Origin: an uncultured Acidobacteriota bacterium
GTDB taxonomy: Bacteria > Acidobacteriota > Thermoanaerobaculia > Multivoradales > UBA5704
Assembly (NCBI GenBank): GCA_963755825.1
Contig: CAVWLA010000003.1
Coordinates: 1,088,940 to 1,152,939, forward strand
Direction of reading: 5' to 3'
Length of the DNA: 64,000 nucleotides
Made by a program: the position numbers and the translations under genes. The notes under the pieces were generated by a model. The model was not told where the DNA came from. It saw only the letters and a program-made list of their open reading frames with translations, and made no database searches. Positions 35,199 to 55,298 of this stretch are shown in pieces (positions within the stretch are counted from its first letter, which is position 1; each line of letters starts with the position of its first letter).

Positions 35199-35747
35199 AT
35201 GAAGCGGATCTTGATCGGATCTCTGCTGTCGGCAGTCGCGTTGTTCCTGTGGGGGTTCGTGTACTGGAACGTGCTGCCGTTCCGCAACTCCATCTACCAG
35301 TCGGTGCCGACCGAGGCGAGCGTCCTGCCGCAGCTCTCGGCCGCCATCCCGCACAGCGGCGTCTACCTGCTCCCCAACGTGGCGAACACCCCCAACGAGG
35401 CGGAGCTCAACAAGCTCTACAGCGCCGGGCCGATCGCCGAGATCATCTTCCTCAAGCACGGCGCGGAGCCCTTCAGCCCGTACATGTTCGTCCACGGCTT
35501 CCTCCACATGTTCATCGCCGCGTTCCTCATGGGGATCCTCCTCTCGCTCGCCCTCCCCGCCCTCGCCACCTACATGGACCGCGTCAAGGCGGTGGTCATC
35601 GCCGGGCTCGCCGGCAGCTTCTTCGCGCACCTGGGCGACCCCATCTGGTTCCACCACCCGTGGAACATGCACATCCTCCATTTCGTCTACGACCTCACCT
35701 GCTGGATCCTGGTCGGCCTCATCCTCTCGAGGTTCGTACGGAACTGA
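35199..35747 (+). CDS. Small integral membrane protein, unknown function
   Basis: 182 aa with 4 predicted TM segments and RBS AAAGGGGATTGG upstream of the ATG. GC is lower than neighbours. Confidence 0.5.
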
Positions 35748-37168
35748 CGCACCCAACGGAGCCAGGCCCTGCCCGGGCGTTCGTCTCGGCGCTCGCGGCG
35801 CTCCTCCTCGTCGCCGGCGCCGCGGCCGCCGGCGGCGACAACTGGCCGTCATTCCGCGGCGCCGACGCCTCGGGCGTCGGCCAGGGTCCGGCGCCCACCA
35901 CCTGGAAGGTCGACAGCTCGCTCCACGTCAAATGGAAGGCGACGATCCCCGGGCTCGGCCATTCGAGCCCGGTGGTCTGGGGCGACCGCGTCTTCGTCAC
36001 CACCGCGATCACCAGCGCGAAGGAGGTCGAGTTCCTCCATGGCCTGACCGGCGAGCTGCATTCCGCCGACGACGTCTCGCCGCAGTCGTGGCGCGTCGAG
36101 TGCCTCGACAAGCGGACCGGCAAGGTGCTCTGGGAGAGAGTGCTCCATGAAGGGGTGCCGCGCAGCAAGCGCCACAAGCGCAACAGCTACGCGACGCCGA
36201 CGCCGGCGACCGACGGCCGACACCTCGTCGTCTCGCTGGGCTCCGAGGGGCTCTACGGGCTCGACCTCGACGGCAAGGTGCTGTGGACGCAGGACATCGG
36301 GACGATGAACGTCGGCTTCTACGCCGACACCAGCCTGCAGTGGGGGGTGGGGAGCTCGCCGATCCTCTACCGCAACCTGGTGATCGTGCAGGCCGACCTC
36401 GACCGCGGCTCGTTCCTCGCCGCCTACGACGTCGAGACCGGCAGGCAGGTGTGGAAGGTCGCCCGCGACGAGCACCAGTCGTGGAGCACGCCGACGGTCT
36501 ACGAGGGCGCGCCGCGCGACGAGCTGATCACCCTCGCGCCGCTCCACGCCCGCGGCTACGACCCCAGGACCGGCAGGGAGCTCTGGAGCCTGGGCTGGAA
36601 CATGGACATCATCCAGTCGACGCCGGTGGTCGCCGGCGGCCTCATCTACTTCACCAGCGGCAAGGGCCCGCGGCAGCCGATCGTCGCGCTGAAGCCGGGG
36701 GCGAGCGACGACATCACCCAGCAGCCCGACAAGCCCGCCGACCCGCACATCGTGTGGAGCAAGGACCGCTGGGGGCCGATCACCACCAGCCCGATCGTCT
36801 ACGGCGACTACCTCTACGCCCTCACCGACCAGGGCGTGCTGCGCTGCTTCGACGCCAAGACCGGCGAGCTGCTCTACACCCAGCGCATCCCCGACGAGTT
36901 CCTCGCCTCGCCGGTGGCGGCGGACGGCAAGCTCTTCCTGACCTCGGAGAACGGCGACGTCTACGTCGTCCGTGCCGGTCCCAAGTACGAGCAGCTGGCG
37001 ATGAACCCGATGGGCGAGACCTGCCTGCCGACGCCGGCCATCTCGGACGGCATCCTCATCATCCGCACCCAGCACTTCCTCTACGGCATCGAAGAGCCCC
37101 CCGCGGCTCCGGTACCGCCGGCGGCTTCGGCAGCCGCCGCAGCTCCCGTCCAGCCGTCCAGCCGATAG
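35660..37168 (+). CDS. Secreted PQQ-like beta-propeller repeat protein (BamB-like). Start is uncertain (GTG 35660 or CTG 35744); there is no ATG/GTG/TTG near the signal peptide.
   Basis: Signal-like [28 protein letters not shown], blades ([49 protein letters not shown]). Either start overlaps the upstream membrane-protein gene. Confidence 0.65.
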
Positions 37169-37195: not shown

Positions 37196-38953
37196 TCAGG
37201 GCTTCGCCGGCGGCAGGCGATAGATGGCGAGGCGCGGGCCCGGGCGCTCGAGGCGAGAGAGGAACGTCGCCGGCCCGTAGGTGTGGTCGAAGATGCGCGG
37301 CAGGACGAATCCCGGCGGCCCCGGCGAGATGGCGAAGACCCGCGTCGCGTCGCGGTCGAGCGAGCGGTAGAAGTCGGTCTTGGCGCGATCCTCGGCGGGA
37401 TCGAGCAGGCGCGAATCCGCGGTGAGGCTGTTGGTGACGATGTACTCGACCCCCTGATCGGCGTAGTCCTGCACCGTCGGCGTGCCGGCCGAGGGTCCGA
37501 AGCTCTGCGCCTTCTCGCTCAGCCCGTAGGGGCCGATCAGGCGGACCTTGTAGGTGCGCCGCGAGAAGGGCACCGGCGCCGCGGCGGTGGCGAGCTGGGG
37601 GCTGAACCACCACGACTCGAGGAGGACTGTCGAGCCGTCCGGCACGTTCTCCTCGATCCACCGCTTGGCGACGGTGCGGGTGTCCTCGCGCTCGAGGAGG
37701 CGGTCGTGGAGGATCAGGCTGTAGGCGGGCTGCGCCACGGCGGCGATGGCCGCCAGCGACAGCGCCGCCGCGAGCGGCCGGCCGCGGAGCCCGAGGCGGG
37801 AGAAGACGGCCCACAGGAGCGCCGCCGCCGCCAGCAGCAGGAACGGCACGGTGCCGAGGATGTAGCGCGCGAAGTACATGTTGCCCGGCTTCAGGAGGAA
37901 GCCGACGTAGAGCACCGGAAAGCAGATCATGAGGCAGACCGGGCGCGCCCGGCGCTCGACGAAGACGAGCACCACCCCGGCGAGCGCCAGCGCGGTCAGC
38001 AGCCATCCCAGCCCCCAGCCGAGCGACACCAGGTAGAAGCGCCAGGGCGGCCCGTCGTCCAGGCGCAGGCGGTCCATGCCGCCGCGGGCGCCGAGCTCCG
38101 CGGCATACTTCCAGAAGGCGAAGGTCGCCTTGGTGTGCAGCACCACCTGCGGCGAGGTGACGAGGAAGACGACCGTGGCGAGGGCGTAGGCGGCGATGAG
38201 CTTGGGATCGAAGAGGGCGCGGAGCCAGCCGCGCCGCGCCGGCGGGCGCTCCCCGTCACCGATCACGCCGCCGTCTCCCCGATCGTCGACCTCGGGGAAG
38301 AGGTGGAAGAGGAGGAGGAGGACGAAGATCGGCCAGGAGAGCTGCTTGGTGGGGAGGGCGAGGCCGGCGAAGAGGCCGGCCCACAGATACGGCTTCACGC
38401 TGCCGCTCGGCGACAGGCGGCTGCAGAAGTATGCCGCCATGACGATGAGGAAATCCGACATCGCGTCCGGCACGCCGTAGTGCGAGCTCCGCGCGTGGAG
38501 GAAGCAGAAGGCGAGGAGGAAGGCCGCCGTCAGGCCGACGGTCTGGTTCCACAGGCGCCGGCCGAGCAGGAAGAGGGGGACGACCGTCGCCGCGCCGAGG
38601 AGAGCGCTGGCGGTGCGCCCGAGGACCTGGAAGCTCATCGCCGAGCCGAGCGCCGCCGCGACGGCCGGCGACAGCGGCAGCGCGTCGACCAGGGGAGCCG
38701 CGAGGTGGAGCAGCTTCTGCAGCGCCAGAACGAGGATCTGGAAGGGGCCGAAGTGGGGATGGATCTTCGCCCAGGTGAAGCTCGCGGTGGCGCGGTAGAG
38801 CGCCTCGTCGACGTGGTAGTTGTAAGGGAGGCCGAAGGTGATCCCCCACAGCCGCACCCAGAGCGCGGCCGCGGCGATCAGCGCCAGCAAGATCCAGGCG
38901 CGGCGGGCCGATGCGGCCGCGGAGCGCTCGTCCAAGTTCCTCTCGACGTTCAT
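37196..38953 (-). CDS. GT-C fold membrane glycosyltransferase (family 39, ArnT/PMT-like)
   Basis: About 11 TM segments. Early periplasmic loop YNYHVDEALY (DE-type motif). Soluble C-terminal domain. 585 aa. Confidence 0.65.
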   Translation of the reverse strand: MNVERNLDERSAAASARRAWILLALIAAAALWVRLWGITFGLPYNYHVDEALYRATASFTWAKIHPHFGPFQILVLALQKLLHLAAPLVDALPLSPAVAAALGSAMSFQVLGRTASALLGAATVVPLFLLGRRLWNQTVGLTAAFLLAFCFLHARSSHYGVPDAMSDFLIVMAAYFCSRLSPSGSVKPYLWAGLFAGLALPTKQLSWPIFVLLLLFHLFPEVDDRGDGGVIGDGERPPARRGWLRALFDPKLIAAYALATVVFLVTSPQVVLHTKATFAFWKYAAELGARGGMDRLRLDDGPPWRFYLVSLGWGLGWLLTALALAGVVLVFVERRARPVCLMICFPVLYVGFLLKPGNMYFARYILGTVPFLLLAAAALLWAVFSRLGLRGRPLAAALSLAAIAAVAQPAYSLILHDRLLEREDTRTVAKRWIEENVPDGSTVLLESWWFSPQLATAAAPVPFSRRTYKVRLIGPYGLSEKAQSFGPSAGTPTVQDYADQGVEYIVTNSLTADSRLLDPAEDRAKTDFYRSLDRDATRVFAISPGPPGFVLPRIFDHTYGPATFLSRLERPGPRLAIYRLPPAKP

Positions 38954-39038
38954 CGATTCATCGCGGTGAGCACTCCGCCCCCCGAGCTCCTCCCCGGAAT
39001 CCCGATCGAGATCGCCGGCCGGCGGCCCGAGTCGGGCC

Positions 39039-40436
39039 TCAAGCGCCGGCGTAGCCGAGAGCCCGGAGCTTATCGCGGAGGTCGGGCGAGAGCGGCCGGC
39101 CGGCGCGGCCCTCGACGTGGCCTGCCAGCCAGCGGTCGAGCACCTGCCGCAGGCCGCTCGCGACCTGCCGCTCGCGCTCGGCGACGTTCCTCGTCTCTCC
39201 TGGATCGGCGGCCAGATCGTACAGCTCCAGGTAGTCCTTGGCGAGGCCCGGGTAGACGATGAGCTTCCAGCGCCGCGAGCGCACGGAGTGGACGAGACGT
39301 TTCTCGTTCAAGCGATAGCCGCGATCGAGGGTCGCCGCGTTCTCGGCGCGGGCGCTGGCGAAGACGAAGGTGTGGAGCGGCTCCGTGCCGCCGGCGAGGG
39401 CGGGGACGAGCGAGCGCCCCTGCGGCCGCAGAGCGGCCGGCTTCGGCACCCGCAGGACCTCGAAGAACGTCGGCAGGAGGTCGACCGTCTCGACCGCCTG
39501 GCGCACCCGGCGCGGCGGCGCCTGGGGGATCGAGAGCAGGAGCGGAATGCGCAGCTGCTCGTCGAAGAGCTCGGCGCCGTGATCGAGCACGCGGTAGCGC
39601 TCGCCGAGCGTCTCGCCGTGATCGGCGAGGACGGCGACGACGGTGGTGTCGAGGTCGATCTGGCGCAGCAGCCGGGCGACCATGGTGTCCTCGTAGCGGA
39701 TCAGCGAGTCGTAGAGCGCCACGTAGTCGTTGAGATGCGTCAGCGGCTGCCCGGCGCGCGCGATCTTCTGGTAGCCGGGGATGTTGGTCAGCTCGCGGCC
39801 CGGCGTCGGCTCGTCGAAGAGGTGCTTGTAGGGCCGCGGCGAGACGTAGGGCCCGTGCGCGTCATAGAGGTGGACGAAGAGGAAGAAGCGGTCGCCCGGG
39901 GAGAGCGCGGCGAGCCAGCGGACCGCCTTGCCGGTCGCCACCGTACCCCGGTTGCGCATCCCCTCGACCTTGTCGTCGTAGATCTCGAAGCCGCGCCGCA
40001 GGCCGCAGAGCTCGTTCTCCAGCGTCACGCCGCTGACGAAGGCGGCGGTCTTGAAGCCCCGCCGCCGCAGCACCTCGGCGAGCGTCGGCTTGTCGGCGGG
40101 GAGGAGGTCGCCGTTCTGCTGCACGCCATGGAAGGGCGGATAGAGGCCGGTCAGCATCGAGGCGTGCGACGGGCCGGTGTTGGTCTGCTGCGCGAAGGCG
40201 TTGGTGAAGACGACCGAGCGGCCGGCGAGCTCGTCGAGCGTCGGCGAGGTCGCCTTCGCATAGCGGCCGAAGCCCAGGTGATCGCGGCGGACGGTGTCGA
40301 GGGTGATGAGCACCAGCCCGCGCGGCGCCGGCCGCTCGCAGGCGAGGAGGGCGACGGCGAGGGCGGCGAGAGCGGTCAGAGCCGCGAGGGCGATCAGCCT
40401 CGACGGCCGCGCGGGGCCGCGAGGGAGCTGGCTCAT
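39039..40436 (-). CDS. Sulfatase-fold (alkaline-phosphatase superfamily) enzyme with a Thr at the nucleophile position, so a phospho-transferase/hydrolase rather than a formylglycine sulfatase
   Basis: Metal-binding N-terminus LITLDTVRRDHLG. Nucleophile region QTNTGPSHASMLTGLYP aligns to the sulfatase C-x-P-S-R-x-x-x-LTG motif with Cys replaced by Thr and Arg by His. Signal/anchor at the N-terminus. Confidence 0.75.
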   Translation of the reverse strand: MSQLPRGPARPSRLIALAALTALAALAVALLACERPAPRGLVLITLDTVRRDHLGFGRYAKATSPTLDELAGRSVVFTNAFAQQTNTGPSHASMLTGLYPPFHGVQQNGDLLPADKPTLAEVLRRRGFKTAAFVSGVTLENELCGLRRGFEIYDDKVEGMRNRGTVATGKAVRWLAALSPGDRFFLFVHLYDAHGPYVSPRPYKHLFDEPTPGRELTNIPGYQKIARAGQPLTHLNDYVALYDSLIRYEDTMVARLLRQIDLDTTVVAVLADHGETLGERYRVLDHGAELFDEQLRIPLLLSIPQAPPRRVRQAVETVDLLPTFFEVLRVPKPAALRPQGRSLVPALAGGTEPLHTFVFASARAENAATLDRGYRLNEKRLVHSVRSRRWKLIVYPGLAKDYLELYDLAADPGETRNVAERERQVASGLRQVLDRWLAGHVEGRAGRPLSPDLRDKLRALGYAGA

Positions 40437-42094
40437 GGCCGCTCGCGGGTGTAGAGGACGGTGGGCCGCAGCTGGTAGCCGACGAGGGGGAGGAAGACGT
40501 CGTCGGCAGCGTCGTAGCGGGGCTGGTCCTCCCCCAGGCGGACGCCCCAGCGCGAGCCGCGGTCGAGGAAGCTGCGCTTCCCCGCCGGCGGCCGCGGCGA
40601 CCGGTAGTCGAGCCGGCTCGGCGTGTAGTCCTTGAGGTCGTCGCCGAACCAGGCGGGATCGGCCCAGTCCTCCTGCGCGAAGATGATGGCGGCGAAGCGG
40701 TCGGCGCGGACGGCCGCCTTCATCTCGCCGAGCAGCGCCCGCCCGAGCTTCTTGTCCTTGCCGCGCATGACGTCGTAGGTGGCGACCGAGTGAGCGTAGA
40801 TTTCCTTGCCGGCGAAGCCGGCGAGGTAGCCGAATTCGGGAAGCAGGACAGCGCCCTGAGTTGCCTTGATCCTTCGCACGAGCCGGTCGCCGGCCTCCCG
40901 ATCCGCTGATGATGGAATCTGTAAGCGCGGATCATAGAAAAGAAGTGCCGACTGCGCAATACAGACGAGGTAGAGCACCACCTCCAGCCCTCTCCTCCAG
41001 CCCGCCCCGCCGCCGTCCTCGCGCGCCGCGCGGAGGCGGCGCGTCCACTCGCCGACCGCGAGGCCGAAGAGGATCGCGAAGTAGGCGAACGAGGGGAGGA
41101 GGGCGTTCAAGAAACCGCCGATCTTCCGCCGGCCGAGATAGGCCGCGCCCACCATGCCGAGCCCGAGGAGCGCATAGAAGAGAAGATCGCGGCGCCGCGT
41201 GCGGCGGAGCAGAGCGAGGAGATAGACGACGCCGATCGGCACCGCGATCCACAGCGGCTTGAGCACGTCGGCCGAGAGGAAGCGGAGCGGCGAGAGGCGC
41301 GAGAACGGCAGCTCGGCCGGGAGGTCGAAGACGTAGTAGTGGAACCAGCCGTGGTGCAGCCGGTCGAGGAGCAGCGTGGCGAGGGCGGCCGCGGAGAGGA
41401 GGGCGCCGGTAAAGCGGAGCGACCAGGCAGGCCGCTCGACGGCGCTGGCGATGGCGAGCGGCGCCATCATGCCGAGAGCCGTCTGCTTGGTGAGGTACGA
41501 GAGGGTGAGGAGGAGGGCCGCCGCCACCGCGGCGCGGTTGCCGCGGCCGAAGCGGACGAGGTAGATGGCGGCGAGGAGGAGGAGGAGGAAGAGCGAGTCG
41601 ATGCGGGCGAGGTCGAGCCACGAGCCGCTGGCGCGGAAGGTGGCGGCGAAGAGCGCCGCGGCGAGGAACCCCGCCTCGGCGCTCTCCGTCTCCCGCTTGA
41701 CGAAGAGAAAGAGCAACGCGAAGCAGCCGAGCGAGCTGGCGAACGACACCAGGCGGAGCGGCAGGAAGCCGTCGCCCAGGAGCCAGGCGGCGGCGGCGCT
41801 GACGTAGAAGTAGAGCGGCGGATAGGTGTAGGGGGTGAAGATGTACGACGGCCGCGCGTAGAGGAGGTGGCCGCCGAGGATCCAGCGGACGTGATGGAGC
41901 GAGCCGCCCTCCATCCACTCGAGGTGATACGGGTAGCCCAAACGGAGGAGGGCGACCGCCAGGTAGAGCCCGATCGATACGGCGCCGGCCACCAGCGCGA
42001 GAGTGCGCAGGAGCCTCGCCAGGCCGCCGGCGAGCTTGCCGCCGGCCGCCTCCTCCATCGCAACCGCGGTCGGGCGACTCGACACCTCGGCCAT
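40433..42094 (-). CDS. GT-C-like polytopic membrane glycosyltransferase (ArnT/PMT-like), second copy
   Basis: About 11 TM segments, first-loop motif HLEWMEGGSL, soluble C-terminal domain. ATGA overlap with the sulfatase-like gene. Confidence 0.6.
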   Translation of the reverse strand: MAEVSSRPTAVAMEEAAGGKLAGGLARLLRTLALVAGAVSIGLYLAVALLRLGYPYHLEWMEGGSLHHVRWILGGHLLYARPSYIFTPYTYPPLYFYVSAAAAWLLGDGFLPLRLVSFASSLGCFALLFLFVKRETESAEAGFLAAALFAATFRASGSWLDLARIDSLFLLLLLAAIYLVRFGRGNRAAVAAALLLTLSYLTKQTALGMMAPLAIASAVERPAWSLRFTGALLSAAALATLLLDRLHHGWFHYYVFDLPAELPFSRLSPLRFLSADVLKPLWIAVPIGVVYLLALLRRTRRRDLLFYALLGLGMVGAAYLGRRKIGGFLNALLPSFAYFAILFGLAVGEWTRRLRAAREDGGGAGWRRGLEVVLYLVCIAQSALLFYDPRLQIPSSADREAGDRLVRRIKATQGAVLLPEFGYLAGFAGKEIYAHSVATYDVMRGKDKKLGRALLGEMKAAVRADRFAAIIFAQEDWADPAWFGDDLKDYTPSRLDYRSPRPPAGKRSFLDRGSRWGVRLGEDQPRYDAADDVFLPLVGYQLRPTVLYTRERP

Positions 42095-42106
42095 CTCCGG
42101 CGCGCC

Positions 42107-44548
42107 CTAGCGGATCGCCTCGACCGGGTCGACCCGCGTTGCCCGGCGGGCGGGCAGATAGCCGGCCACCAGGGTGACGGCGATCAGCCCCGCCGAGACC
42201 GCCACGAAGGTCGCCACGTCGAGCCGGCTGACGCCGAAGAGGAGGCTGTTCAAGAAACGCGTCAGGGCGAGCGCGGCGGCGAGCCCGACGACGACCCCGG
42301 TCAGCACGAGGAGGAGGATGGTCTTGAGAACCATCCACAGCACGTCGCCGCCCTGCGCCCCGAGCGCCATGCGGATGCCGATCTCCGCCGTCCGCTGGTT
42401 GACCGAGTAGGAGATGACGCCGTAGACGCCGACCCCGGCGAGGATGAGCGCGATGACCGCGAAGGCGGTGAGCAGCCAGGTGCTCAGGCGCCGCTGCACC
42501 ACGGTGTCCTGCATGATCTCGTTGAGCGTCCGCACCTTGCCGAGAGCGAGGTTGGGGTCGAGCTCGCGCACCTGGCGGCGGACCGCGGCCGAGAGGCTGG
42601 CTGGATGGTCGGCGCGGAGGACCACCGAGGCCCAGCGCCAGGTCGCCTGGTAGTTGGCGAAGTAGAGCTCGGGCGGGGCGTCGACGTCGAGCCCCGAGTG
42701 CCGCACGTCGCCGACCACGCCGACGATCTCGCGGGTGCCGGTGGCGAGCTGGCCGGCCGGGCCGAAGTCGATGTCGAAGGTGAGCCGCTGGCCGAGCGGG
42801 TTCTGGCCCGGGAAGAAATGGCGCGCCAGGGCGTCGTTGACGAGCACCACGCCGGGCGCCTTGGCGTCGTCGCGCACGGTGAAGGCGCGGCCGCGGAGGA
42901 CGGGGATGCCCATGGTCGCGAAGTAGCCCGGCGTCACCGCCTGCACGGAGACCTCCTCGGGCGGCACGCCGGCCTTGGCGGGCGGCCGGCCGACGACGGT
43001 GAACGAGGTCGTGCCGTCGTAGCTGGTGAGCGGCAGGAACCAGGTCGAGCCCACCGACCGCACGCCGGGGAGCGCCGCGTACCGCGCCTCGAGATCCTTC
43101 ATGAAGGCGACCGTCTTCACCGGGTTCTCGTAGGCCGCCTGGGGCATCATCTGGACGTCGACGGTGAGCACCTCCTCGGGCTTGCGGAACCCGGGGTCGA
43201 CATCGAGGAGGCCGTGGAGGCTGCGGATGAGGAGGCCGGCGCCGATGAAGAGCGCGAGAGCGACCGCCACCTGGGCGACGACCGTCGCCTGCTGCAGCGC
43301 GTGGCTCGCCCGCGTCGTCCGCCGGCCGCCGCTGCGCATCGCGTCGGTGAGCTCGGCCCGCGAGCCGCGGAGGGCGGGGATGAGGCCGAAGAGCACGGCC
43401 GTCAGCAGGCAGATGAGGAGGGTGAAGCCGACGACGCCGCCGTCGAGGCTGACCTTGGCGAGCTGCGGCAGGTTGCCCTCGAGGAGCGGGGTGAGCGCGT
43501 GGACGCCCCAGTAGGCGAGCACCAGGCCGCAGGCGCCGGAGATGAGCGACAGCACCAGGCTCTCGATCAGCAGCTGGCGGATGAGGTGGCCGCGCTCGGC
43601 GCCCAGGGCGAGGCGGAGGGCGACCTCGCCGCGCCGCTCGACCGAGCGGGACAGCAGCAGGTTCGAGATGTTGGCGCAGGCGATGAGGAGGACCAGGCCG
43701 ACGGCGGCCCAGAGCACGAGGAGGGCGAGGCGGAACTTGCCGACCAGCGAGTCCTGCAGCTTGACGACCCAGGTGCCGCGGCCCTTGCTGGTGTCGGGAT
43801 AGAGCTCCTCGAAGCGGTGGGTGATGCTGTTCAGGTTCTGCTGGGCGACCTCGACCGAGACGCCGGGCTTCAGGCGGGCGATCGAGCGCAGCAGGCTGAA
43901 GTTCCGCTGCCAGTCCTTGGCCACCATGCCGAGCGGCTTCCAGAGCGCCGTCTGGTCCGGATAGTCGAAGCCCGGCGGCATGACGCCGATGATGACGTAC
44001 TGCTTGCCGTCGAGCCGCAGGGTCTTGCCGAGGATCCTGGGGTCCTTGCCGTAGCGCTCCTGCCAGAGCCCGTAGCCGAGGATCGCCACCTTGTCGTGGT
44101 CCGGGTTGTCCTCCTCGTGCAGGAAGTCGCGGCCGAGCATCGGCTTGACCCCCAGCATCTTGAAGAGCTCCGCCGAGACGCCGGAGGCGCGGACGCGGAT
44201 CGGCTCGGGGTCGCCCTCGAGCGTCGGCTTGTACGGTCCGAGGCCGGCGAGGGCCTCGAAGACCCGGTTCTGTGCCCGCAGATCCATCAGGTTGGGCACC
44301 GACACCTGCATCAGGCCCGGCGGCGCCGAGCCGCCCTGCGGCGACGGGGTGGTGCTCGTCAGGTCGCGCTCCCAGACCATCACCAGGCGGTCGGGGTCCT
44401 TGAACGGCGGCGGCCGCAGCAGGGTGCCGTGGATGAAGCTGTAGACGGCGCTGTTGGCGCCGATGGCGAGCGTCAGGCTGAGGATGGCGACCGCGCTCGA
44501 GCCGGGCGACGCCAGGAGCCTGCGGAGAGCGTAGCGAACGTCATGCAT
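42107..44548 (-). CDS. ADOP-family ABC permease (duplicated FtsX domains, MacB-like)
   Basis: The N-terminus MHDVRYALRRLLASPGSSAVAILSLTLAIGANSAVYSFIHGTLLRPPPFKDPDRLVMVW matches the characteristic ADOP signature. Two FtsX 4-TM bundles. 813 aa. No adjacent ATPase. Confidence 0.8.
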   Translation of the reverse strand: MHDVRYALRRLLASPGSSAVAILSLTLAIGANSAVYSFIHGTLLRPPPFKDPDRLVMVWERDLTSTTPSPQGGSAPPGLMQVSVPNLMDLRAQNRVFEALAGLGPYKPTLEGDPEPIRVRASGVSAELFKMLGVKPMLGRDFLHEEDNPDHDKVAILGYGLWQERYGKDPRILGKTLRLDGKQYVIIGVMPPGFDYPDQTALWKPLGMVAKDWQRNFSLLRSIARLKPGVSVEVAQQNLNSITHRFEELYPDTSKGRGTWVVKLQDSLVGKFRLALLVLWAAVGLVLLIACANISNLLLSRSVERRGEVALRLALGAERGHLIRQLLIESLVLSLISGACGLVLAYWGVHALTPLLEGNLPQLAKVSLDGGVVGFTLLICLLTAVLFGLIPALRGSRAELTDAMRSGGRRTTRASHALQQATVVAQVAVALALFIGAGLLIRSLHGLLDVDPGFRKPEEVLTVDVQMMPQAAYENPVKTVAFMKDLEARYAALPGVRSVGSTWFLPLTSYDGTTSFTVVGRPPAKAGVPPEEVSVQAVTPGYFATMGIPVLRGRAFTVRDDAKAPGVVLVNDALARHFFPGQNPLGQRLTFDIDFGPAGQLATGTREIVGVVGDVRHSGLDVDAPPELYFANYQATWRWASVVLRADHPASLSAAVRRQVRELDPNLALGKVRTLNEIMQDTVVQRRLSTWLLTAFAVIALILAGVGVYGVISYSVNQRTAEIGIRMALGAQGGDVLWMVLKTILLLVLTGVVVGLAAALALTRFLNSLLFGVSRLDVATFVAVSAGLIAVTLVAGYLPARRATRVDPVEAIR

Positions 44549-44589
44549 CGACTGCCTCGATTCTTAGGGTGCGCCGCGTCGTTTCGATC

Positions 44590-46311
44590 TCAGCCGCCGT
44601 TGGCCGGCGCCTGCCGCCGGCGGTAGACGGCGGCCTGGTACCCCCGCTGGCCCAGCTCGGGTGTCCAGCTCGAGGTCTCGAGCACCCAGGGTCCCGGCTG
44701 CTCGCTCGCCTTGACCAGGGCGACCATCTCGTAGGCCGCCTCGATGGCGCCGCCGTACTGCTTCCACTGGGCGAGCGTCGGCCGGCCGCGGGGATCGAGG
44801 AGGACGAAGACCAGATAGTCCGGACGGCGGCCGAGGACGTAGCCCATGTCGAACTTCTCGTGGCCCGCCATCCCCTTGCCGAGCGGCATCGCGAGGTGCG
44901 CGATGTGGGCGTCGGTCAGCCCCAGCATGTCGATCGTCGGCCGCTGTGAATAGAACGGAATGCGCCCCACCGCGCCGACCGCGACGACCGCCTCGGGCGG
45001 GCTCTCGGCACGGAGCCAGCGGCCGAGCTCGGTCCAGCTCTCGTTGATGAGCGAGACGTACTTGAGATCGTCCGCCTTCCGCGGCCAGGAGAAGACGAGC
45101 GCCAGGGCGACGAGGACGGCGAGCCCGGCGCCCGCGATCGCCCGCCGCGAGCTCGGCGGCGAAAGGGCGGCGAGCGCGCGCACGCCCTCCGCGGCGAGCA
45201 GCAGGACGAAGGGGAGCGCCGGCAACAGGAAGCGCGGCCCGAAGAAGAAGCCGAAGTCGCCGCCGACGCCGACGATGTAGACGCCGAGAGCGATCACCAG
45301 CGCGACCGGCAGCAGCCAGCGGCGGTCGCGGCGGATGCCGGCGATGGCGCCGATCAGGGCGAGGACGAGCGGCGCGCCGAGCGCGGTGTCGTGGACGCTG
45401 GCGCGCAGGTAGGTCCAGCCGCGCAGGAGGAGCGCGCGGTTGAAGCCGCCGCCGCCGGCCTTGGCGTAGAAGGTGTTGGGGAGGAGATCGCCGTAGTACG
45501 CGAACCGCCAGATGAAGTACGGCGCGGCGACGGCGAGGAAGCCGGCGGCGAGCCAGCCCGCCGTCGCCAGCCGCCCGCGCACATGGCGGGAGCCGCCGCC
45601 CTCCTCCCCGCTCGCCTGGCTCTTCTGGCTCTGGCGGCCGGCGCCGCCGACCGCGAGCTCGCAGAGGACGACGAGGCCGAAGAAGATGGCCCCCTCCGGC
45701 CGCGTCAGGCTGGCGAGGGCGAGGACCAGGCCGGCGACCAGCGGCGGCCGGGCCTCGAGATAGAGGTAGACCCCCAGCGTGGCGAGGAAGACGAAGAGCG
45801 GCGTCTCCATGCCGGAGACGACGTAGCGCGCCTGGGCGCCGATGGCGGCGAAGAGGAGAGGGGCGATCGCCACCAGGACGCCCTCGCCGGCGGTGCTGGC
45901 GGCTTCGGCAGCATCGGCGAACAGCCGGCGGCCGAGGAGGACGAGGAGGACCAGGGTGCCGGCGGTGGCCAGGAAGGCGAGGACGGTCGACGCCGCCGGC
46001 ATTCCCACCCCCAGCCGTTGCGCGGCGGCGAGGAGGACCGTCCACAGGAAGTTGGTGTAGCCCTCCACCCGCTCGCCGGCGTTGAAGACGAGGCCGAGGC
46101 CGCGGGCGAGATTGGCCGCGTAGCGGAAGGAGATGAAGGCGTCGTCGATGAGCAGCCAGGGGCCGAGCTGCACGGCGAGGAGGAGGACGCGGACGGTGAG
46201 CAGGACGGTCGACAGAGCGAGGCAGAGGCCGTCCGTCCGCGACCAGCCGGCGAGGCCCGGAGCGCCGGCCGGCCGGCGTTCCACCTCCGTCATCGGCAGA
46301 GATTCCTGCAC
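44590..46311 (-). CDS. Polytopic membrane protein, putative GT-C-like glycosyltransferase (third copy in this operon)
   Basis: More than 10 TM segments, early motif [15 protein letters not shown], soluble C-terminal domain. 573 aa. Confidence 0.45.
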
Positions 46312-46527
46312 CGCGGCCGGTCCTCCATTATTCTCCTAAACGCCTGCAAGGCTTCATTTTTGAGCCCGCGGATCATAGCATCCGCACCCTCCCGATTTGA
46401 CTTCCTGACTCTTCGCAATTACGCTCTACCTACCGCGAATTGACTTGGATTCGGAGATCGCGCCCGGCCGGGGCGATCTCGTTCACGACAGCCCGCCGGA
46501 TCGGTCCGGCACACAAGGAGATCTGTC

Positions 46528-47091
46528 ATGCGGAAGAGTGCTCTGTTGCAGGGAGTGATCGTGTTGTCGGCAGTCCTCGCGCTGGCGTCGCCGGCGTTCT
46601 CGGCGCAGAAGGCGTCGGGGGGCGGCAAGAGCCGGGCGGCGGTGCGGGCCTTCGCCCAGACCACGTTCGACACCCTCAAGTCGCTCGAGGGGGATTGGCA
46701 GGGGAAGGCGTACGGCGACGACAAACCGCCGGTCATCCTGCGCTACAAGGTGACCCAGCAGGGGACGGTGGTGATGGAGACCTTCGCCCCCGGCACCAAG
46801 GCCGAGATGATCACCATGTACCACATGAACGACGACAAGCTGGTGCTGACGCACTACTGCGCCGCGGGCAACCAGCCGAACATGACGATGAGCCCGGCGC
46901 GCTCGAAGGCGGGGAACATCTCCTTCGCCTACGCCGGCGCCTCCAACCTGCTGCCCTCGACCGATACCTACATGCACAACGGCAGCATTCACGTCATCGA
47001 CGCCGACCACCTGGAGACCAACTGGACGACCTACAAGGCGGGCAAGCTCCTCGACTCCCAGAAGGTCGCCTTCGAGCGCGTCAAGCAGTAG
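46528..47091 (+). CDS. Small secreted hypothetical protein (signal peptide; lower GC)
   Basis: MRKSALLQGVIVLSAVLALASPAFSA signal peptide and a 160-aa beta-rich mature region. No motif recognised. Confidence 0.55.
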   Translation: MRKSALLQGVIVLSAVLALASPAFSAQKASGGGKSRAAVRAFAQTTFDTLKSLEGDWQGKAYGDDKPPVILRYKVTQQGTVVMETFAPGTKAEMITMYHMNDDKLVLTHYCAAGNQPNMTMSPARSKAGNISFAYAGASNLLPSTDTYMHNGSIHVIDADHLETNWTTYKAGKLLDSQKVAFERVKQ

Positions 47092-48548: not shown

Positions 48549-48571
48549 TCCTCTCTCCTCGCGACCGCCGC

Positions 48572-51335: not shown

Positions 51336-52078
51336 GCGTGGAGACTCCCGCTTCGAAGCTGCCCTCGATCCTCGTCCCCTGCCTCAACGAGGCGGAGTGC
51401 ATCGAGAGCGTGCTGCGCGCCGTGCCCGCCGAGTACGCCGCCGGCGTGCTGGTGATCGACGGCGGCTCGACCGACGGCACGGTCGAGAAGGTCCGCGGCC
51501 TCGGCTTCCGCGTCATCCGCCAGCCCGGCCGCGGCCTCGGCCGGGCGGTGGTGGCGGGGATCGAGGGCACCGCCGGCCCGGTCATCGTCACCATCGACGC
51601 CGACGGCTCGCACGACGCCGCCGACATCCCGCGCCTGCTCGCCAAGATCGACGAGGGCTACGACCTGGTGATCGCCTCGCGCTACTCCGACGGCCCCGAG
51701 GACGCCGGCATGTTCAGCCCGCGCCGGCGCTCGACCTCGGCCGACGACACGCCGATCCGCGAGTTCGGCAACCGCGCCTTCACCTGGCTCTGCCGGGTGC
51801 TCTTCGGCGTCCCGGCGCACGACACTCTCAACGGCTTCAAGGCCTTCCGGCGGCCGCTCTTCGACACCGTCAAGATCGAGCAGCCCGGCCAGGAGTACGA
51901 CATCGAGGTCCTCCTCAAGGCCCACCTCGCCGGCTTCCGCATCGGCGAAGTGCCGATCGTCGAGCACCTGCGTCTGGCGGGAGACTCCAAGCTGAGCGTC
52001 CCCTACCACGGCGCCCGCATCCTCTGGGTGATCCTCCGCGAGCGGATGACGAGCCTCGGCCGGCGTCGGCCGAGGTAG
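51332..52078 (+). CDS. GT2 polyprenyl-phosphate sugar transferase (DPM1/ArnC-like)
   Basis: GT-A fold: ILVPCLNEAECIE, VIDGGSTDGT, DADGSHD (DxD). ATGA overlap with the preceding beta-propeller gene. 248 aa. Confidence 0.8.
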   Translation: MSVETPASKLPSILVPCLNEAECIESVLRAVPAEYAAGVLVIDGGSTDGTVEKVRGLGFRVIRQPGRGLGRAVVAGIEGTAGPVIVTIDADGSHDAADIPRLLAKIDEGYDLVIASRYSDGPEDAGMFSPRRRSTSADDTPIREFGNRAFTWLCRVLFGVPAHDTLNGFKAFRRPLFDTVKIEQPGQEYDIEVLLKAHLAGFRIGEVPIVEHLRLAGDSKLSVPYHGARILWVILRERMTSLGRRRPR

Positions 52079-54031: not shown

Positions 54032-54055
54032 GGCGCCGATGTCCGCGGTCCGACC

Positions 54056-55288: not shown

Positions 55289-55298
55289 GGCGGCCGCC

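What the first reader, a model, noticed from the sequence alone, without database searches (positions are those of the whole stretch)
37196..46311. Envelope-glycosylation operon: three GT-C membrane glycosyltransferases, a Thr-nucleophile sulfatase-fold enzyme and an orphan ADOP permease
Five minus-strand genes with tight spacing (ATGA overlap, 12 nt, 41 nt) combine three ArnT/PMT-like polytopic glycosyltransferases with a sulfatase-fold protein and an ADOP permease that has no ATPase partner nearby. Together with the GT2 ArnC-like gene at 51332 and the aminotransferase/formyltransferase/dehydratase operon at 53030-58074, the window holds all enzyme classes of an L-Ara4N-type lipid-linked aminosugar modification pathway (ArnB, ArnA-N, ArnA-C-like, ArnC, ArnT), but rearranged and with a PIG-L deacetylase in place of ArnD. 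This is possibly a novel envelope glycan or lipid modification.
Basis: partly seen in the sequence, partly recalled or inferred. Interest (0 to 1): 0.6.

Follow-up and report, generated by a model that had tools for sequence, protein, structure and literature searches.

The report
Acidobacterial periplasmic glycosylation module with orphan permease
Five co-transcribed genes of an uncultured acidobacterium encode three different membrane glycosyltransferases, an ATPase-less MacB-type permease and a sulfatase-shaped enzyme that cannot be a normal sulfatase; relatives keep this gene set together with a lipid-sugar donor synthase and amino-sugar genes, so it probably decorates the cell envelope in an Arn-like but not Arn-orthologous way.

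Summary
At 37196-46311 (minus strand) lie five tightly spaced genes. G5 is an AftB-like GT-C. G4 is an ADOP duplicated FtsX/MacB permease with no ATPase domain. G3 is a GT-C with an ArnT-like fold. G2 is a lipoprotein with a sulfatase fold, carrying T-G-P-S-H where sulfatases have C/S-x-P-x-R. G1 is a PMT-like GT-C.

The module is conserved in Acidobacteriota (Thermoanaerobaculia-type) metagenome contigs. One relative has the order G5-ADOP-G3-G1, and G5 sits next to ADOP wherever both are seen.

The L-Ara4N reading is only partly right. The sugar genes score as LegB, LegC and NeuC (legionaminic-acid type), not ArnA or ArnB. The GT2 is AglJ/PpgS-like, not ArnC. No ArnT equivalog matched.

A 71%-identical GT2 sits directly upstream of G3-G1 in one relative. 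In another, LegB-like, LegC, PIG-L and formyltransferase orthologues flank G1-G3.

Best reading: a periplasmic glycosylation line fed by polyprenyl-phosphate sugars, probably a 4-amino/formamido-4,6-dideoxy-hexosamine. The acceptor and the ADOP role are unknown.

This is a new variant of a known kind, of moderate interest.

The parts
44590..46311 (-). G5: AftB-like (GT89-like) GT-C glycosyltransferase, 573 aa (start could be ATG 46293)
   Evidence: No Pfam hit. NCBIfam gives weak AftB and LA_3751/2 matches. The profile of 57 homologues hits AftB 9dlf at E 6e-21, aligned through the DD motif; D56 and D57 are invariant. The AF2 model has pLDDT 89.5. The top Foldseek hit is AftB (E 3.9e-9), followed by ALG9/12, STT3, ArnT and PglB.
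42107..44548 (-). G4: ADOP duplicated FtsX/MacB-type permease, 813 aa, no ATPase domain
   Evidence: TIGR03434 scores 936.5 bits against a cutoff of 622.3, with two MacB_PCD + FtsX units. Orthologues of 46-60% identity sit next to G5 in L001, L002, L004 and L017; a further one is at the contig edge next to G1 in L018.
40433..42094 (-). G3: GT-C glycosyltransferase (PMT_2) with an ArnT-like fold, 553 aa
   Evidence: PMT_2 scores 34.7 bits against 26.1. E59, W60, E62 and G63 are invariant in loop 1. The AF2 model has pLDDT 90.6. The top Foldseek hit is ArnT 5f15 at E 6e-8, TM 0.54. Orthologues lie next to G1 in L017, L020, L031, L052 and L053.
39039..40436 (-). G2: sulfatase-fold (alkaline-phosphatase superfamily) lipoprotein with a Thr nucleophile, 465 aa
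   Evidence: Sulfatase PF00884 at E 3e-40. A lipobox reading ..ALLAC is present. The motif is T87-G-P-S-H instead of C/S-x-P-x-R. 159 of 163 related domains have Thr at this position. Orthologues occur in L017 and L052. A 48%-identical homologue is fused to a GT-C-type membrane domain.
37196..38953 (-). G1: PMT-like (GT39-like) GT-C glycosyltransferase, 585 aa; narrow family that anchors the conserved neighbourhood
   Evidence: PMT_2 scores 44.6 bits against 26.1. The family profile hits Pmt1 6p25 (E 1.7e-5), Pmt4 and STT3B. D49 and E50 are invariant across the 13 closest orthologues and align to the PMT DE loop; E50 is invariant across all 25. Only about 24 orthologues were found among 5.8e9 proteins.
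46312..46527 (.). Divergent intergenic region, likely promoter region of the five-gene block
   Evidence: AT-richer 216 bp between the G5 start and the oppositely oriented gene at 46528. No sigma-70 consensus match was found.
51332..52078 (+). GT2, polyprenyl-phosphate sugar synthase type (AglJ / Dol-P-hexose transferase / PpgS-like), 248 aa: candidate donor maker
   Evidence: Pfam Glycos_transf_2. NCBIfam gives AglJ 110 bits, Dol-P-hexose transferase 97, PpgS 65 and ArnC only 33. A 71% orthologue lies directly upstream of G3-G1 in L053.
52114..52890 (-). SAM-dependent methyltransferase co-conserved with G1
   Evidence: Methyltransf_25/11. Orthologues adjoin G1 in L022 (59% identity) and L053 (55%).
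53030..58074 (+). Amino-sugar operon: LegB (53030-54031), LegC (54056-55288), NeuC-type 2-epimerase (~55290-56513), N-formyltransferase (56513-57412), PIG-L deacetylase (57409-58074)
   Evidence: NCBIfam scores LegB 510 (cutoff 475), LegC 505 (cutoff 420) and NeuC 450 (cutoff 236); the formyltransferase is ArnA-N/PRK06988-like but below cutoffs. Orthologues of four of the five genes (not NeuC) flank G1-G3 in L020.
35199..35747 (+). Small conserved membrane protein (182 aa; ORF could start at 35106), unknown family
   Evidence: No Pfam hit above threshold. Orthologues of 50-55% identity occur in L004, L018 and L020, in L020 between PIG-L and G1.
35972..37168 (+). PQQ_2/BamB-like beta-propeller, convergent with G1; co-conserved
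   Evidence: PQQ_2 at E 3e-31. Called as 398 aa. Orthologues of 50-64% identity occur in L004, L017, L018 and L020.
46528..47091 (+). Secreted 187-aa protein of unknown family, divergent from G5; co-conserved
   Evidence: Has a signal peptide and no family hit. Orthologues occur in L022 and L053.
50013..51335 (+). PQQ_2 beta-propeller co-conserved with the sulfatase-like gene
   Evidence: PQQ_2. Orthologues of about 57-63% identity sit next to the G2 orthologue in L017 and L052.
14373..18270 (-). Two tandem di-haem DHOR proteins, the most frequent neighbours of G1 in relatives
   Evidence: DHOR PF06537; one copy has an EF-hand. CxxCH motifs are visible. Orthologues of 59-64% identity sit next to G1 in L001, L002, L004, L018 and L053.
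3658..4575 (-). DUF6073 protein, co-conserved with the module
   Evidence: PF19550. Orthologues occur in L002, L003, L004, L018 and L020.
30896..35055 (+). LolD/MacB-type ABC ATPase (30896-31615) plus 1151-aa FtsX-type permease (31600-35055): the only type-VII ABC ATPase in the window
   Evidence: ABC_tran and FtsX. LolD TIGR02211 scores 250 bits, below the cutoff of 308. The pair recurs near GT2-G3-G1 in L053. There is no significant similarity to G4.

Best explanation
The five genes form one transcription unit. It encodes a periplasmic glycosylation line that is conserved in a Thermoanaerobaculia-type lineage of Acidobacteriota.

Shown:
- Three GT-C enzymes of three different subfamilies are present: G1 PMT-like, G3 ArnT-like in fold, G5 AftB-like. 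Each keeps the acidic motif in the first periplasmic loop.
- Between them sit an ADOP (MacB-type, ATPase-less) permease and a lipoprotein of the alkaline-phosphatase superfamily. That lipoprotein has a Thr nucleophile and cannot make formylglycine.
- G5-ADOP and G3-G1 are conserved gene pairs.

Inferred from what is established about GT-C enzymes and from synteny:
- A small GT2 (51332-52078) loads a sugar onto polyprenyl phosphate on the cytoplasmic side.
- The sugar is probably a 4-amino/4-formamido-4,6-dideoxy-hexosamine made by the LegB-like dehydratase, the LegC-family aminotransferase and the ArnA-N-like formyltransferase. The PIG-L enzyme probably removes an N-acyl group.
- After flipping, G1 and G3 transfer the sugar on the periplasmic face, and the AftB-like G5 adds to or extends a glycan.
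- My preferred acceptor is a lipid-anchored envelope glycan (a lipoglycan or glycolipid, possibly LPS).
- The ADOP permease would act as LolCDE or MacB do, handling the lipid-anchored product at the outer leaflet, or as FtsX does, activating a periplasmic partner. Its energy would come from an ATPase encoded elsewhere.
- G2 would carry out phosphoryl- or sulfuryl-ester chemistry on the glycan.
For: Operon structure:
- Same strand, with gaps of -4, 12, 41 and 85 nt.
- No terminator-like excess inside the block.

GT-C identity:
- Pfam PMT_2 for G1 and G3.
- G1 family profile hits Pmt1, Pmt4 and STT3B.
- G3 model has ArnT as top hit at E 6e-8.
- G5 profile and model both hit AftB.
- Invariant D49/E50, E59/E62 and D56/D57.

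Conservation:
- L017 has the order G5-ADOP-G3-G1 at 55-60% identity, with the G2 and PQQ orthologues adjacent.
- L002 and L004 have ADOP-G5-G3 next to G1.
- L001 has G5-ADOP 5 kb from G1.

Donor logic:
- L053 has GT2 (71% identity), then G3, then G1.
- L001 has a PgfS/ArnC-like GT2 abutting the G1 orthologue.
- GT2 genes also sit next to distant G1 homologues in L007, L008, L025, L041, L044 and L050.

Sugar link:
- L020 has LegB-like, DegT, LegC and PIG-L, then G1-G3-formyltransferase with a 4-nt overlap.
- L023 has DegT followed by G1.

G2 acts with GT-Cs and on glycans:
- Orthologues occur in L017 and L052.
- Homologues lie directly upstream of distant G1 homologues in L035-L038 and L046.
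- A 48%-identical homologue is fused to a PTPS_related/YfhO-type GT-C membrane domain, and others are fused to CBM9.
- Thr is conserved in 159 of 163 domains.

Lipid-anchored acceptor:
- G1 orthologues abut MMPL + LolA-like and aryl-polyene-type KS/KR/DH genes in L001 and L003.
- G3 has an ArnT-like fold.
- ADOP belongs to the LolC/E-MacB permease class.
Against: - No acceptor, donor or product has been observed; everything beyond fold and synteny is inference.
- The window's sugar operon carries a NeuC-type hydrolysing 2-epimerase scoring well above its cutoff. Such an enzyme would release the sugar from its nucleotide and point to a nonulosonic acid rather than a polyprenyl-phosphate sugar.
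- The sugar genes are within 10 kb of G1 in only 4 of 12 relatives' loci, and as a full set only in L020.
- The GT2 orthologue is adjacent in only one locus.
- G2 is present in only 2 of 12 loci.
- Several loci (L002, L004, L018) come from closely related organisms, so there are fewer independent lineages than loci.
- No flippase (GtrA, ArnE/F or Wzx type) was recognised.
- ADOP has no demonstrated energy source.
- G1 is PMT-like, and several neighbouring secreted proteins have Pro/Ala/Ser/Thr-rich tails. This fits protein O-glycosylation as well.
Confidence: 0.45

Rival explanations
1. Protein O-glycosylation system. G1, and perhaps G3, transfer sugar from polyprenyl phosphate onto Ser/Thr of secreted proteins encoded nearby (PQQ_2 propellers, DHOR haem proteins, DUF6073). 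This would resemble actinobacterial Pmt or the streptococcal Pgf system (GT2 PgfS plus GT-C PgfM1/M2).
For: - The G1 profile's best solved relatives are protein O-mannosyltransferases, and the DE motif is kept.
- The GT2 next to the G1 orthologue in L001 scores best as PgfS (250 bits).
- PQQ_2, DHOR and DUF6073 orthologues are the most constant neighbours of G1.
- Several of these proteins end in, or contain, Pro/Ala/Ser/Thr-rich low-complexity stretches in the window and in relatives.
Against: - The low-complexity tails are not conserved in all orthologues and are common in high-GC proteomes.
- This reading explains neither the AftB-like G5, nor the ADOP permease, nor the link to MMPL/LolA lipid-export genes.
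- The PgfS score is below its cutoff of 500.
Confidence: 0.2
2. Lipid A/LPS cationic amino-sugar modification in the strict Arn/Lgm/Flm sense. The GT2 makes a polyprenyl-P-N-acyl-amino-sugar, PIG-L de-acylates it, and the ArnT-like G3 puts the free-amine sugar on a lipid A phosphate.
For: - G3's closest solved fold is ArnT.
- The formyltransferase aligns to the ArnA N-domain at 142 bits.
- The GT2 + de-N-acylase + GT-C triad is the known pattern.
- In L020 the formyltransferase is translationally coupled to G3.
Against: - All Arn equivalog tests fail.
- Fold similarity is only 12-13% identity with TM about 0.54, and AftA, OST and PglB score nearly as well.
- Three GT-Cs, an ADOP permease and a phosphatase-like enzyme are more than a lipid A decoration needs.
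- No lipid A genes are nearby.
Confidence: 0.15
3. The amino-sugar operon is a separate legionaminic-acid-type (nonulosonic acid) pathway for a cytoplasmically built glycan, unrelated to the GT-C block. The GT-Cs would use an ordinary hexose or pentose donor.
For: - LegB, LegC and NeuC all pass their NCBIfam cutoffs.
- The operon lies 6.7 kb from the block, with four unrelated-looking genes in between.
- Most relatives lack the sugar genes within 10 kb of G1.
Against: - No NeuB/LegI, NeuA/LegF or LegH is in the window.
- In L020 the LegB-like, LegC, PIG-L and formyltransferase orthologues are interleaved with G1-G3, and NeuC is absent there.
- DegT directly precedes G1 in L023.
Confidence: 0.15

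Closest known systems
Arn pathway of Enterobacteria (ArnA/B/C/D/E/F/T; L-Ara4N on lipid A), and its relatives Lgm (Bordetella GlcN) and Flm/NaxD (Francisella GalN)
   Same: Both combine an NDP-sugar aminotransferase, an ArnA-N-like N-formyltransferase, a GT2 of the polyprenyl-phosphate glycosyl type, a de-N-acylase and a GT-C with an ArnT-like fold. The formylate-transfer-deacylate-flip-transfer logic fits.
   Different: - No gene reaches an Arn equivalog score.
- The dehydratase is a LegB-type 4,6-dehydratase, not a UDP-GlcA decarboxylase, so the sugar is a 6-deoxy-hexosamine and not a pentose.
- The deacylase is PIG-L/LmbE and not the ArnD type.
- No ArnE/F is present.
- There are three GT-Cs instead of one, plus an ADOP permease and a Thr-type sulfatase-fold enzyme.
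Mycobacterial periplasmic glycan assembly (AftB GT89, PimE, Emb proteins; PpgS + Rv3779 GalN addition to arabinogalactan; PMC7502851)
   Same: Several GT-C enzymes of different subfamilies act in series on a lipid-linked or wall glycan, using polyprenyl-phosphate donors. G5 is a sequence and fold homologue of AftB. The GT2 resembles PpgS. The amino-sugar side decoration implies a deacetylation step.
   Different: - The phylum differs (a diderm acidobacterium).
- No DPA pathway (UbiA, DprE1/2) was seen in the window.
- G5 shares only about 22% identity with AftB.
- No mycobacterial system includes a MacB-type permease in the operon.
GtrAB-GtrC / CsbB-GtcA-YfhO / PgfS-PgfM three-component glycosylation systems
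   Same: A GT2 makes polyprenyl-P-sugar and is paired in an operon with a GT-C that glycosylates an extracytoplasmic acceptor. The GT2 next to G1 in L001 is PgfS-like. A close G2 homologue is fused to a YfhO/PTPS_related-type domain.
   Different: No GtrA/GtcA flippase was recognised. There are three GT-Cs. The acceptor is unknown. ADOP and the sulfatase-fold enzyme have no counterpart.
ADOP family (TIGR03434), MacB / LolCDE / FtsEX type VII ABC systems
   Same: G4 passes the ADOP model. It has two MacB_PCD + FtsX units in one chain and no adjacent ATPase, which is the family's defining oddity.
   Different: Here the ADOP gene is embedded between GT-C genes in a conserved operon. To my knowledge, and from two literature searches, this functional context has not been described for the family. 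MacB, LolCDE and FtsEX always have a dedicated ATPase.
Formylglycine (S1) sulfatases, and Thr-nucleophile members of the same Pfam family (LtaS, EptA/MCR, OpgB)
   Same: G2 has the sulfatase (PF00884) fold, and the metal-site DHG motif (D272 H273) is visible in the sequence. A Thr nucleophile is also used by LtaS and the pEtN transferases.
   Different: - The C/S-x-P-x-R motif is replaced by T-x-P-S-H, so no formylglycine can form.
- Unlike LtaS and EptA, G2 has no N-terminal multi-helix membrane domain, only a lipoprotein signal.
- NCBIfam matches to pEtN transferases are weak (32 bits or less).

Membership tests
GT-C fold glycosyltransferases | Polytopic N-terminal membrane domain with the GT-C fold | tested here: met
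   G5 model (pLDDT 89.5): top hits AftB, ALG9/12, STT3, ArnT and PglB. G3 model (pLDDT 90.6): ArnT, AftA, OST and PglB. G1: PMT_2 above cutoff, and the profile hits Pmt1, Pmt4 and STT3B.
GT-C fold glycosyltransferases | Conserved acidic residue(s) in the first extracytoplasmic loop | tested here: met
   G1 D49-E50, G3 E59/E62 and G5 D56-D57 are invariant in the orthologue or homologue alignments, and each lies just after the first hydrophobic helix.
GT-C fold glycosyltransferases | Lipid-phosphate-linked sugar donor, extracytoplasmic catalysis | not testable with these tools
   Only indirect support: polyprenyl-P-sugar-synthase-type GT2 genes adjoin G1 or G3 in L053, L001 and several distant loci.
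Arn (L-Ara4N) pathway | ArnA C-terminal UDP-glucuronate oxidative decarboxylase | tested here: not met
   The SDR at 53030-54031 scores ArnA NF005998 34 bits (cutoff 777) and LegB TIGR04180 510 bits (cutoff 475).
Arn (L-Ara4N) pathway | ArnB UDP-Ara4N aminotransferase | tested here: not met
   NF008658 scores 170 bits (cutoff 631); the LegC family scores 505 bits (cutoff 420).
Arn (L-Ara4N) pathway | ArnA N-terminal formyltransferase | tested here: inconclusive
   The protein aligns to ArnA model positions 24-278 at 142 bits and to PRK06988 at 151 bits, both below whole-protein cutoffs. It scores above Fmt (101 bits). It is a sugar-type N-formyltransferase, but its specificity is unknown.
Arn (L-Ara4N) pathway | ArnC Und-P Ara4FN transferase | tested here: not met
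   PRK10714 scores 33 bits (cutoff 529). The best matches are AglJ, Dol-P-hexose transferase and PpgS, all below cutoff.
Arn (L-Ara4N) pathway | ArnT lipid A Ara4N transferase | tested here: inconclusive
   No NCBIfam ArnT hit for G1, G3 or G5 at E<=0.01. G3's top structural hit is ArnT, but at 12-13% identity and TM 0.54, with other GT-Cs close behind.
Arn (L-Ara4N) pathway | ArnD deformylase and ArnE/F flippase | tested here: not met
   No such family appears among the window genes scanned. A PIG-L deacetylase is present instead. No small SMR/GtrA-type flippase was recognised.
Legionaminic acid (nonulosonic acid) pathway | LegB, LegC, hydrolysing 2-epimerase LegG/NeuC | tested here: met
   All three score above the NCBIfam cutoffs.
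Legionaminic acid (nonulosonic acid) pathway | LegH acetyltransferase, LegI/NeuB synthase, LegF/NeuA CMP-transferase | tested here: not met
   None was found among the window's genes. The rest of the genome could not be searched.
ADOP family duplicated permease (TIGR03434) | Duplicated MacB_PCD + FtsX architecture scoring above the model cutoff | tested here: met
   936.5 bits against 622.3, with two MacB_PCD and two FtsX stretches.
ADOP family duplicated permease (TIGR03434) | No adjacent ABC ATPase ('orphan') | tested here: met
   No ABC_tran gene adjoins G4 in the window, nor within 10 kb of its orthologues in L001, L002, L004 and L017, apart from an unrelated FecCD-linked ATPase in L017. 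The nearest type-VII ATPase is 10.5 kb away and overlaps another permease gene.
Formylglycine (S1) sulfatases | C/S-x-P-x-R formylglycine motif | tested here: not met
   The motif is T87-G-P-S-H. 159 of 163 domains of the closest 150 representatives also have Thr, with H at the Arg position in 129 of them.
AftB / GT89 | Sequence homology to AftB transmembrane domain with the DD motif | tested here: met
   The profile scores E 6e-21 against 9dlf over profile positions 25-377, including DDAFISFRY aligned to DDGLIVLRT. The Foldseek top hit shows 22% identity.
AftB / GT89 | Decaprenyl-phospho-arabinofuranose donor and arabinan acceptor | not tested
   No UbiA- or DprE-type genes were noticed in the window. 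The rest of the genome is not available.

The most novel reading that the evidence does not exclude
The ADOP permease is an integral, dedicated component of a GT-C glycan assembly line. It would hold or extract a lipid-anchored glycoconjugate built in the periplasm by three GT-Cs, perhaps a glycosylated product of the neighbouring aryl-polyene/enediyne-accessory-type lipid cluster that is exported by the MMPL/LolA-like pair. This would give the first functional assignment to the large, so far function-less ADOP family. It would also define a new acidobacterial envelope glycolipid pathway that includes a Thr-nucleophile sulfatase-fold enzyme.
Probability: 0.25. Interest if true: 0.7.

Novelty: new variant of a known kind. 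Interest (0 to 1): 0.5.

Why it matters
Acidobacteriota are among the most abundant soil bacteria, yet their envelope chemistry is almost unknown.

ADOP permeases are a hallmark expansion of the phylum and have no assigned function. A conserved operon that places an ADOP between GT-C glycosyltransferases gives that family a concrete, testable context.

The block also points to a large clade of sulfatase-fold proteins with a T-x-P-S-H motif that cannot make formylglycine. These proteins are repeatedly linked, and sometimes fused, to GT-C enzymes or to carbohydrate-binding modules. This suggests an unrecognised phospho- or sulfo-ester step in periplasmic glycan processing.

Finally, it shows that the Arn-like logic (formylate, load on polyprenyl phosphate, de-acylate, transfer by GT-C) may be reused with a Leg/bacillosamine-type sugar.

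Tried and rejected
- Single-sequence phmmer of G1, G3 and G5 against PDB gave nothing useful. Profiles and structure models were needed.
- The G3 profile still found no PDB sequence match.
- The 25-sequence G1 alignment was too diverse for the search for related loci; a 13-sequence version worked.
- The metagenome scan returned mostly short contigs and distant homologues. It gave only three informative orthologue loci (L022, L023, L031), plus the recurrent sulfatase-GT-C pairs.
- In one search I picked the wrong reading frame for the L004 G5 orthologue, so that row is meaningless. The correct ORF is L004:5632-7263(-).
- The promoter/terminator scan was uninformative in this 72% GC DNA.
- Rfam and tRNA scans of the window found nothing.
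- Literature searches for ADOP, DUF6073, GT-C with MacB/FtsX, Thr-nucleophile sulfatase-fold enzymes, and acidobacterial aryl-polyene/MMPL/LolA clusters found nothing relevant.
- I considered that the ATPase at 30896 might be ADOP's partner. It overlaps the start of a different, unrelated FtsX protein and is absent near ADOP orthologues, so I treat it as unproven.
- I considered the small membrane protein at 35199 as a flippase. There is only a sub-threshold DUF1761 match, so I make no claim.
- I rejected the idea that G2 is an ordinary sulfatase (motif test) or a pEtN transferase (no membrane domain, weak scores).

Full report
OBSERVATION

The window is about 72% GC, so third-position GC separates real genes cleanly. 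At 37196-46311 there are five minus-strand ORFs with GC3 of 0.92-0.98:
- G5, 44590-46311
- G4, 42107-44548
- G3, 40433-42094
- G2, 39039-40436
- G1, 37196-38953

The junctions, read directly from the sequence, are as follows:
- G5 to G4: 41 nt
- G4 to G3: 12 nt
- G3 to G2: an ATGA overlap
- G2 to G1: 85 nt

Upstream of G5 is a 216-bp AT-richer divergent intergenic region. G1 is convergent with a PQQ_2 gene that ends 27 nt away. Nothing inside the block looks like a terminator beyond the shuffle expectation.

WHAT THE FIVE PROTEINS ARE

G1 and G3 pass Pfam PMT_2 (44.6 and 34.7 bits against a cutoff of 26.1).

G1:
- A profile of G1 orthologues finds yeast Pmt1 (E 1.7e-5), Pmt4 and STT3B among solved structures.
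- The G1 sequence 'YHVDE' aligns to the PMT loop-1 'DE' motif.
- D49 and E50 are invariant in the 13 closest orthologues.

G3:
- Its family has no PDB sequence match.
- It is related to G1 over the PMT_2 core (hhalign 94%).
- Its AlphaFold model (pLDDT 90.6) is most similar to ArnT (5f15, E 6e-8, TM 0.54), followed by AftA, OST and PglB.
- E59, W60, E62 and G63 just after the first helix are invariant.

G5:
- It has no Pfam domain.
- A 57-sequence profile matches mycobacterial AftB (9dlf) at E 6e-21, through an invariant DD motif.
- The model (pLDDT 89.5) has AftB as its top hit, then ALG9/12, STT3, ArnT and PglB.

All three are thus GT-C enzymes, but from three different subfamilies: PMT-like, ArnT-like in fold, and AftB-like.

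G4:
- It is an ADOP permease (TIGR03434, 936.5 bits against 622.3).
- It has two MacB_PCD + FtsX units and no ATPase domain.

G2:
- It has the sulfatase fold (PF00884, E 3e-40) and a lipoprotein signal (..ALLAC).
- It carries T87-G-P-S-H where formylglycine sulfatases have C/S-x-P-x-R.
- Among the 150 closest cluster representatives in a 1.8-billion-protein library, 159 of 163 domains have Thr at that position. The consensus is T-x-P-S-H-x-S-x-x-T-G.
- G2 therefore belongs to a large Thr-type clade that cannot be a canonical sulfatase.

IS THE BLOCK A FUNCTIONAL UNIT?

G1 has only about 24 orthologues in a 5.8-billion-protein collection. The named ones come from Acidobacteriota MAGs. Homologues of G5 and G3 are often labelled Thermoanaerobaculia.

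I gathered 12 non-window loci that carry a G1 orthologue of at least 41% identity: L001, L002, L003, L004, L017, L018, L020, L022, L023, L031, L052 and L053. I then mapped every window protein onto them by tblastn. The main patterns are these:
- L017 reproduces the order G5-ADOP-G3-G1 at 55-60% identity. The G2 orthologue (52%) and a PQQ_2 orthologue lie on the opposite strand next door.
- L002 and L004 have ADOP-G5-G3 divergent from G1.
- L001 has G5-ADOP 5 kb from G1.
- L020, L031, L052 and L053 have G3 followed by G1.
- G5 is adjacent to ADOP in every locus where both are seen.

The ADOP gene is therefore not a chance neighbour.

One caveat applies. L002, L004 and L018 are clearly close relatives of each other, and three loci are only 1.4-3.4 kb long. 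The number of independent observations is smaller than 12.

THE ARA4N INTERPRETATION

NCBIfam scoring of the sugar operon is unambiguous.

| Gene | Best match (bits / cutoff) | Arn match (bits / cutoff) |
|---|---|---|
| 53030-54031 | LegB 510 / 475 | ArnA 34 / 777 |
| 54056-55288 | LegC family 505 / 420 | ArnB 170 / 631 |
| Formyltransferase 56513-57412 | PRK06988 151 / 316 (below cutoff) | ArnA N-domain 142 / 777 (below cutoff) |
| PIG-L 57409-58074 | BshB1-like 65 / 182.5 (weak) | none |
| GT2 51332-52078 (248 aa) | AglJ, Dol-P-hexose transferase, PpgS (all below cutoff) | ArnC 33 / 529 |

No Arn orthologue is present. The chemistry implied is NDP-GlcNAc converted to a 4-keto-6-deoxy, then a 4-amino, then a 4-formamido sugar. 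That is a bacillosamine- or legionaminic-acid-precursor-type sugar, not a pentose.

The window has no NeuB, NeuA or LegH. The genes after 58074 (glyoxalase, S15 peptidase, DJ-1) are unrelated.

THE GUESSED LINK IS NEVERTHELESS SUPPORTED

- In L053, a 71%-identical GT2 lies directly upstream of G3 (60%) and G1 (60%). Orthologues of the methyltransferase at 52114 and of the secreted protein at 46528 follow. The LolD-type ATPase/FtsX pair and a DHOR gene lie upstream.
- In L020 the gene order is LegB-like SDR (68%; LegB 471 bits), an RfbH-like DegT, a LegC-family DegT (59%; 466 bits), PIG-L (59%), the small membrane protein (55%, opposite strand), G1 (51%), G3 (57%), and a formyltransferase (65%) whose start overlaps the G3 stop. 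A sugar-phosphate nucleotidyltransferase is next door, and there is no NeuC.
- In L023 a DegT orthologue ends 15 nt before G1.
- In L001 a PgfS/ArnC-like GT2 abuts the G1 orthologue.
- GT2 genes flank distant G1 homologues in Chloroflexota and other loci.

The pairing of a GT2 donor synthase with a GT-C, and a link to the formamido-amino-sugar genes, are real tendencies. This is the logic of Arn, Lgm/Flm and PpgS-Rv3779 (the last summarised in PMC7502851), even though none of the genes are orthologues.

The NeuC gene in the window remains unexplained. A hydrolysing epimerase would take the sugar off its nucleotide.

THE WIDER NEIGHBOURHOOD

The most constant neighbours of G1 in relatives are not the sugar genes. 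They are:
- the two di-haem DHOR proteins (window 14373-18270)
- DUF6073 (3658-4575)
- a PQQ_2 propeller (35972-37168)
- the small membrane protein (35199-35747)

In L001 and L003, the neighbours also include an MMPL/HAE3 transporter, a LolA-like protein and aryl-polyene-type KS/KR/DH/methyltransferase genes. All of these are also in the window. Much of the 64 kb therefore looks like one shuffled envelope-lipid/glycan supercluster.

G2 AND GLYCANS

- G2 orthologues accompany G3-G1 in L017 and L052.
- Homologues of 31-32% identity, also carrying Thr, sit directly upstream of distant G1 homologues in five soil contigs.
- A 48%-identical homologue (P0277) is fused to a PTPS_related/YfhO-type membrane domain. 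I recall these families as belonging to the GT-C clan; that point rests on my own knowledge.
- Two other homologues are fused to CBM9.

Together these argue that the clade acts on glycans in concert with GT-C enzymes. Because of the Thr nucleophile, the chemistry is probably phosphoryl-ester rather than classical sulfate-ester hydrolysis. This last point is inference.

MECHANISM I COMMIT TO (confidence about 0.45)

This is a periplasmic glycosylation line.
1. In the cytoplasm, the LegB-like, LegC-like and formyltransferase enzymes make an NDP-4-formamido-4,6-dideoxy-hexosamine.
2. The GT2 loads it, or another sugar, onto polyprenyl phosphate.
3. PIG-L removes an N-acyl group.
4. An unidentified flippase moves the lipid-linked sugar across the membrane.
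5. G1 and G3 transfer it, and the AftB-like G5 extends a glycan, on a lipid-anchored envelope acceptor.
6. G2 edits a phospho- or sulfo-ester on the glycan.
7. ADOP handles the lipid-anchored product in the manner of LolCDE or MacB, or regulates a periplasmic partner in the manner of FtsX. It would use an ATPase encoded elsewhere.

What is shown: the folds, the motifs, the operon structure and the synteny. What is inferred: the donor, the sugar identity, the acceptor, and the roles of ADOP and G2.

RIVALS

- Protein O-glycosylation of the co-conserved secreted proteins. G1 is PMT-like, one adjacent GT2 is PgfS-like, and Pro/Ala/Ser/Thr-rich tails are seen.
- Strict lipid A amino-sugar modification.
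- An unrelated legionaminic-acid pathway that merely lies nearby.

NOVELTY AND SCORE

The kind of system is known: GT2 plus de-N-acylase plus GT-C decoration of the envelope. Three features are new:
- three GT-C subfamilies combined with an embedded ADOP permease
- a Thr-type sulfatase-fold lipoprotein
- a Leg/bacillosamine-type sugar supply

Literature searches found no functional work on ADOP and no description of this combination. I rate it a new variant of a known kind, with interest 0.5.

The most novel reading not excluded is that ADOP is a dedicated component of a glycolipid or lipoglycan assembly and export line tied to the neighbouring polyene-type lipid cluster. I give that a probability of about 0.25.

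Noticed in passing
window 5017-14370: A type-II FAS/PKS cluster of the aryl-polyene kind. It holds an ACP-like ORF (5017-5286), KS (5279-6469), a CLF-like KS (6448-7446), a FabZ-like dehydratase (7443-7895), KR (7896-8642), a second KS (8657-9958) and a methyltransferase (~9955-11103). A LolA-like protein (11126-12019, minus strand) and an MMPL/HAE3 transporter (12016-14370, minus strand) follow. Orthologues abut G1 in L001 and L003.
   Followed up: partly
window 600-3535: An FG-GAP/UnbV_ASPIC protein (600-2984) and a DUF1702 protein (2981-3535) sit side by side. These families are known as accessory proteins of enediyne PKS cassettes (DUF1702 is labelled 'enediyne biosynthesis protein' in PMC7692728). 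Here they lie next to a type-II KS cluster with no enediyne PKS. Orthologues occur in L020 and L023.
   Followed up: partly
window 14373-18270: Two tandem di-haem DHOR (putative peroxidase) genes, one with an EF-hand. They are the most constant neighbours of the G1 glycosyltransferase in relatives. Their role in a glycosylation or lipid cluster is unexplained.
   Followed up: partly
window 18496-22226, 24869-26167, 35972-37168, 47244-51335: Seven PQQ_2/BamB-like beta-propeller genes lie in 64 kb. Two of them (35972-37168 and 50013-51335) have orthologues that travel with G1 and G2 in relatives. Several end in Pro/Ala/Ser/Thr-rich tails.
   Followed up: partly
window 26160-35055: A plus-strand run of a TonB-dependent receptor, an FAD-dependent halogenase-like enzyme (CmlS-like, 173 bits, below cutoff), a GT4 glycosyltransferase, a LolD-type ABC ATPase and an unusually long (1151 aa) FtsX-type permease. 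The permease's DNA reaches 79% GC at 32-34 kb. The ATPase/permease pair recurs in L053.
   Followed up: partly
window 55290-56513: A NeuC/NnaA-type UDP-GlcNAc 2-epimerase (450 bits, cutoff 236) sits inside the amino-sugar operon. No NeuB or NeuA is in the window, and the gene is absent from the syntenic sugar genes of L020. Its role here is unexplained.
   Followed up: partly
window 22231-24846: An iron-type alcohol dehydrogenase (22231-23406) and a HemN-like radical SAM protein (23635-24846) lie between PQQ_2 genes. B12-binding radical SAM plus methyltransferase pairs occur near G1 in L002 and L018.
   Followed up: no
window 48572-50041: The longest ORF (489 aa) has an Arg/Ala-rich N-terminal extension that is probably not translated. 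Coding signal starts near 49750. It would otherwise overlap the plus-strand PQQ_2 gene at 50013.
   Followed up: no
L019 (ENA ERZ25039533 contig_12334): A 44%-identical G5 homologue and a second, 27%-identical paralogue sit in a rhamnose-type polysaccharide cluster (rmlABCD, GT2s, a sulfotransferase, a PMT_2 protein) with no ADOP. The wider G5 family is thus polysaccharide-associated.
   Followed up: no
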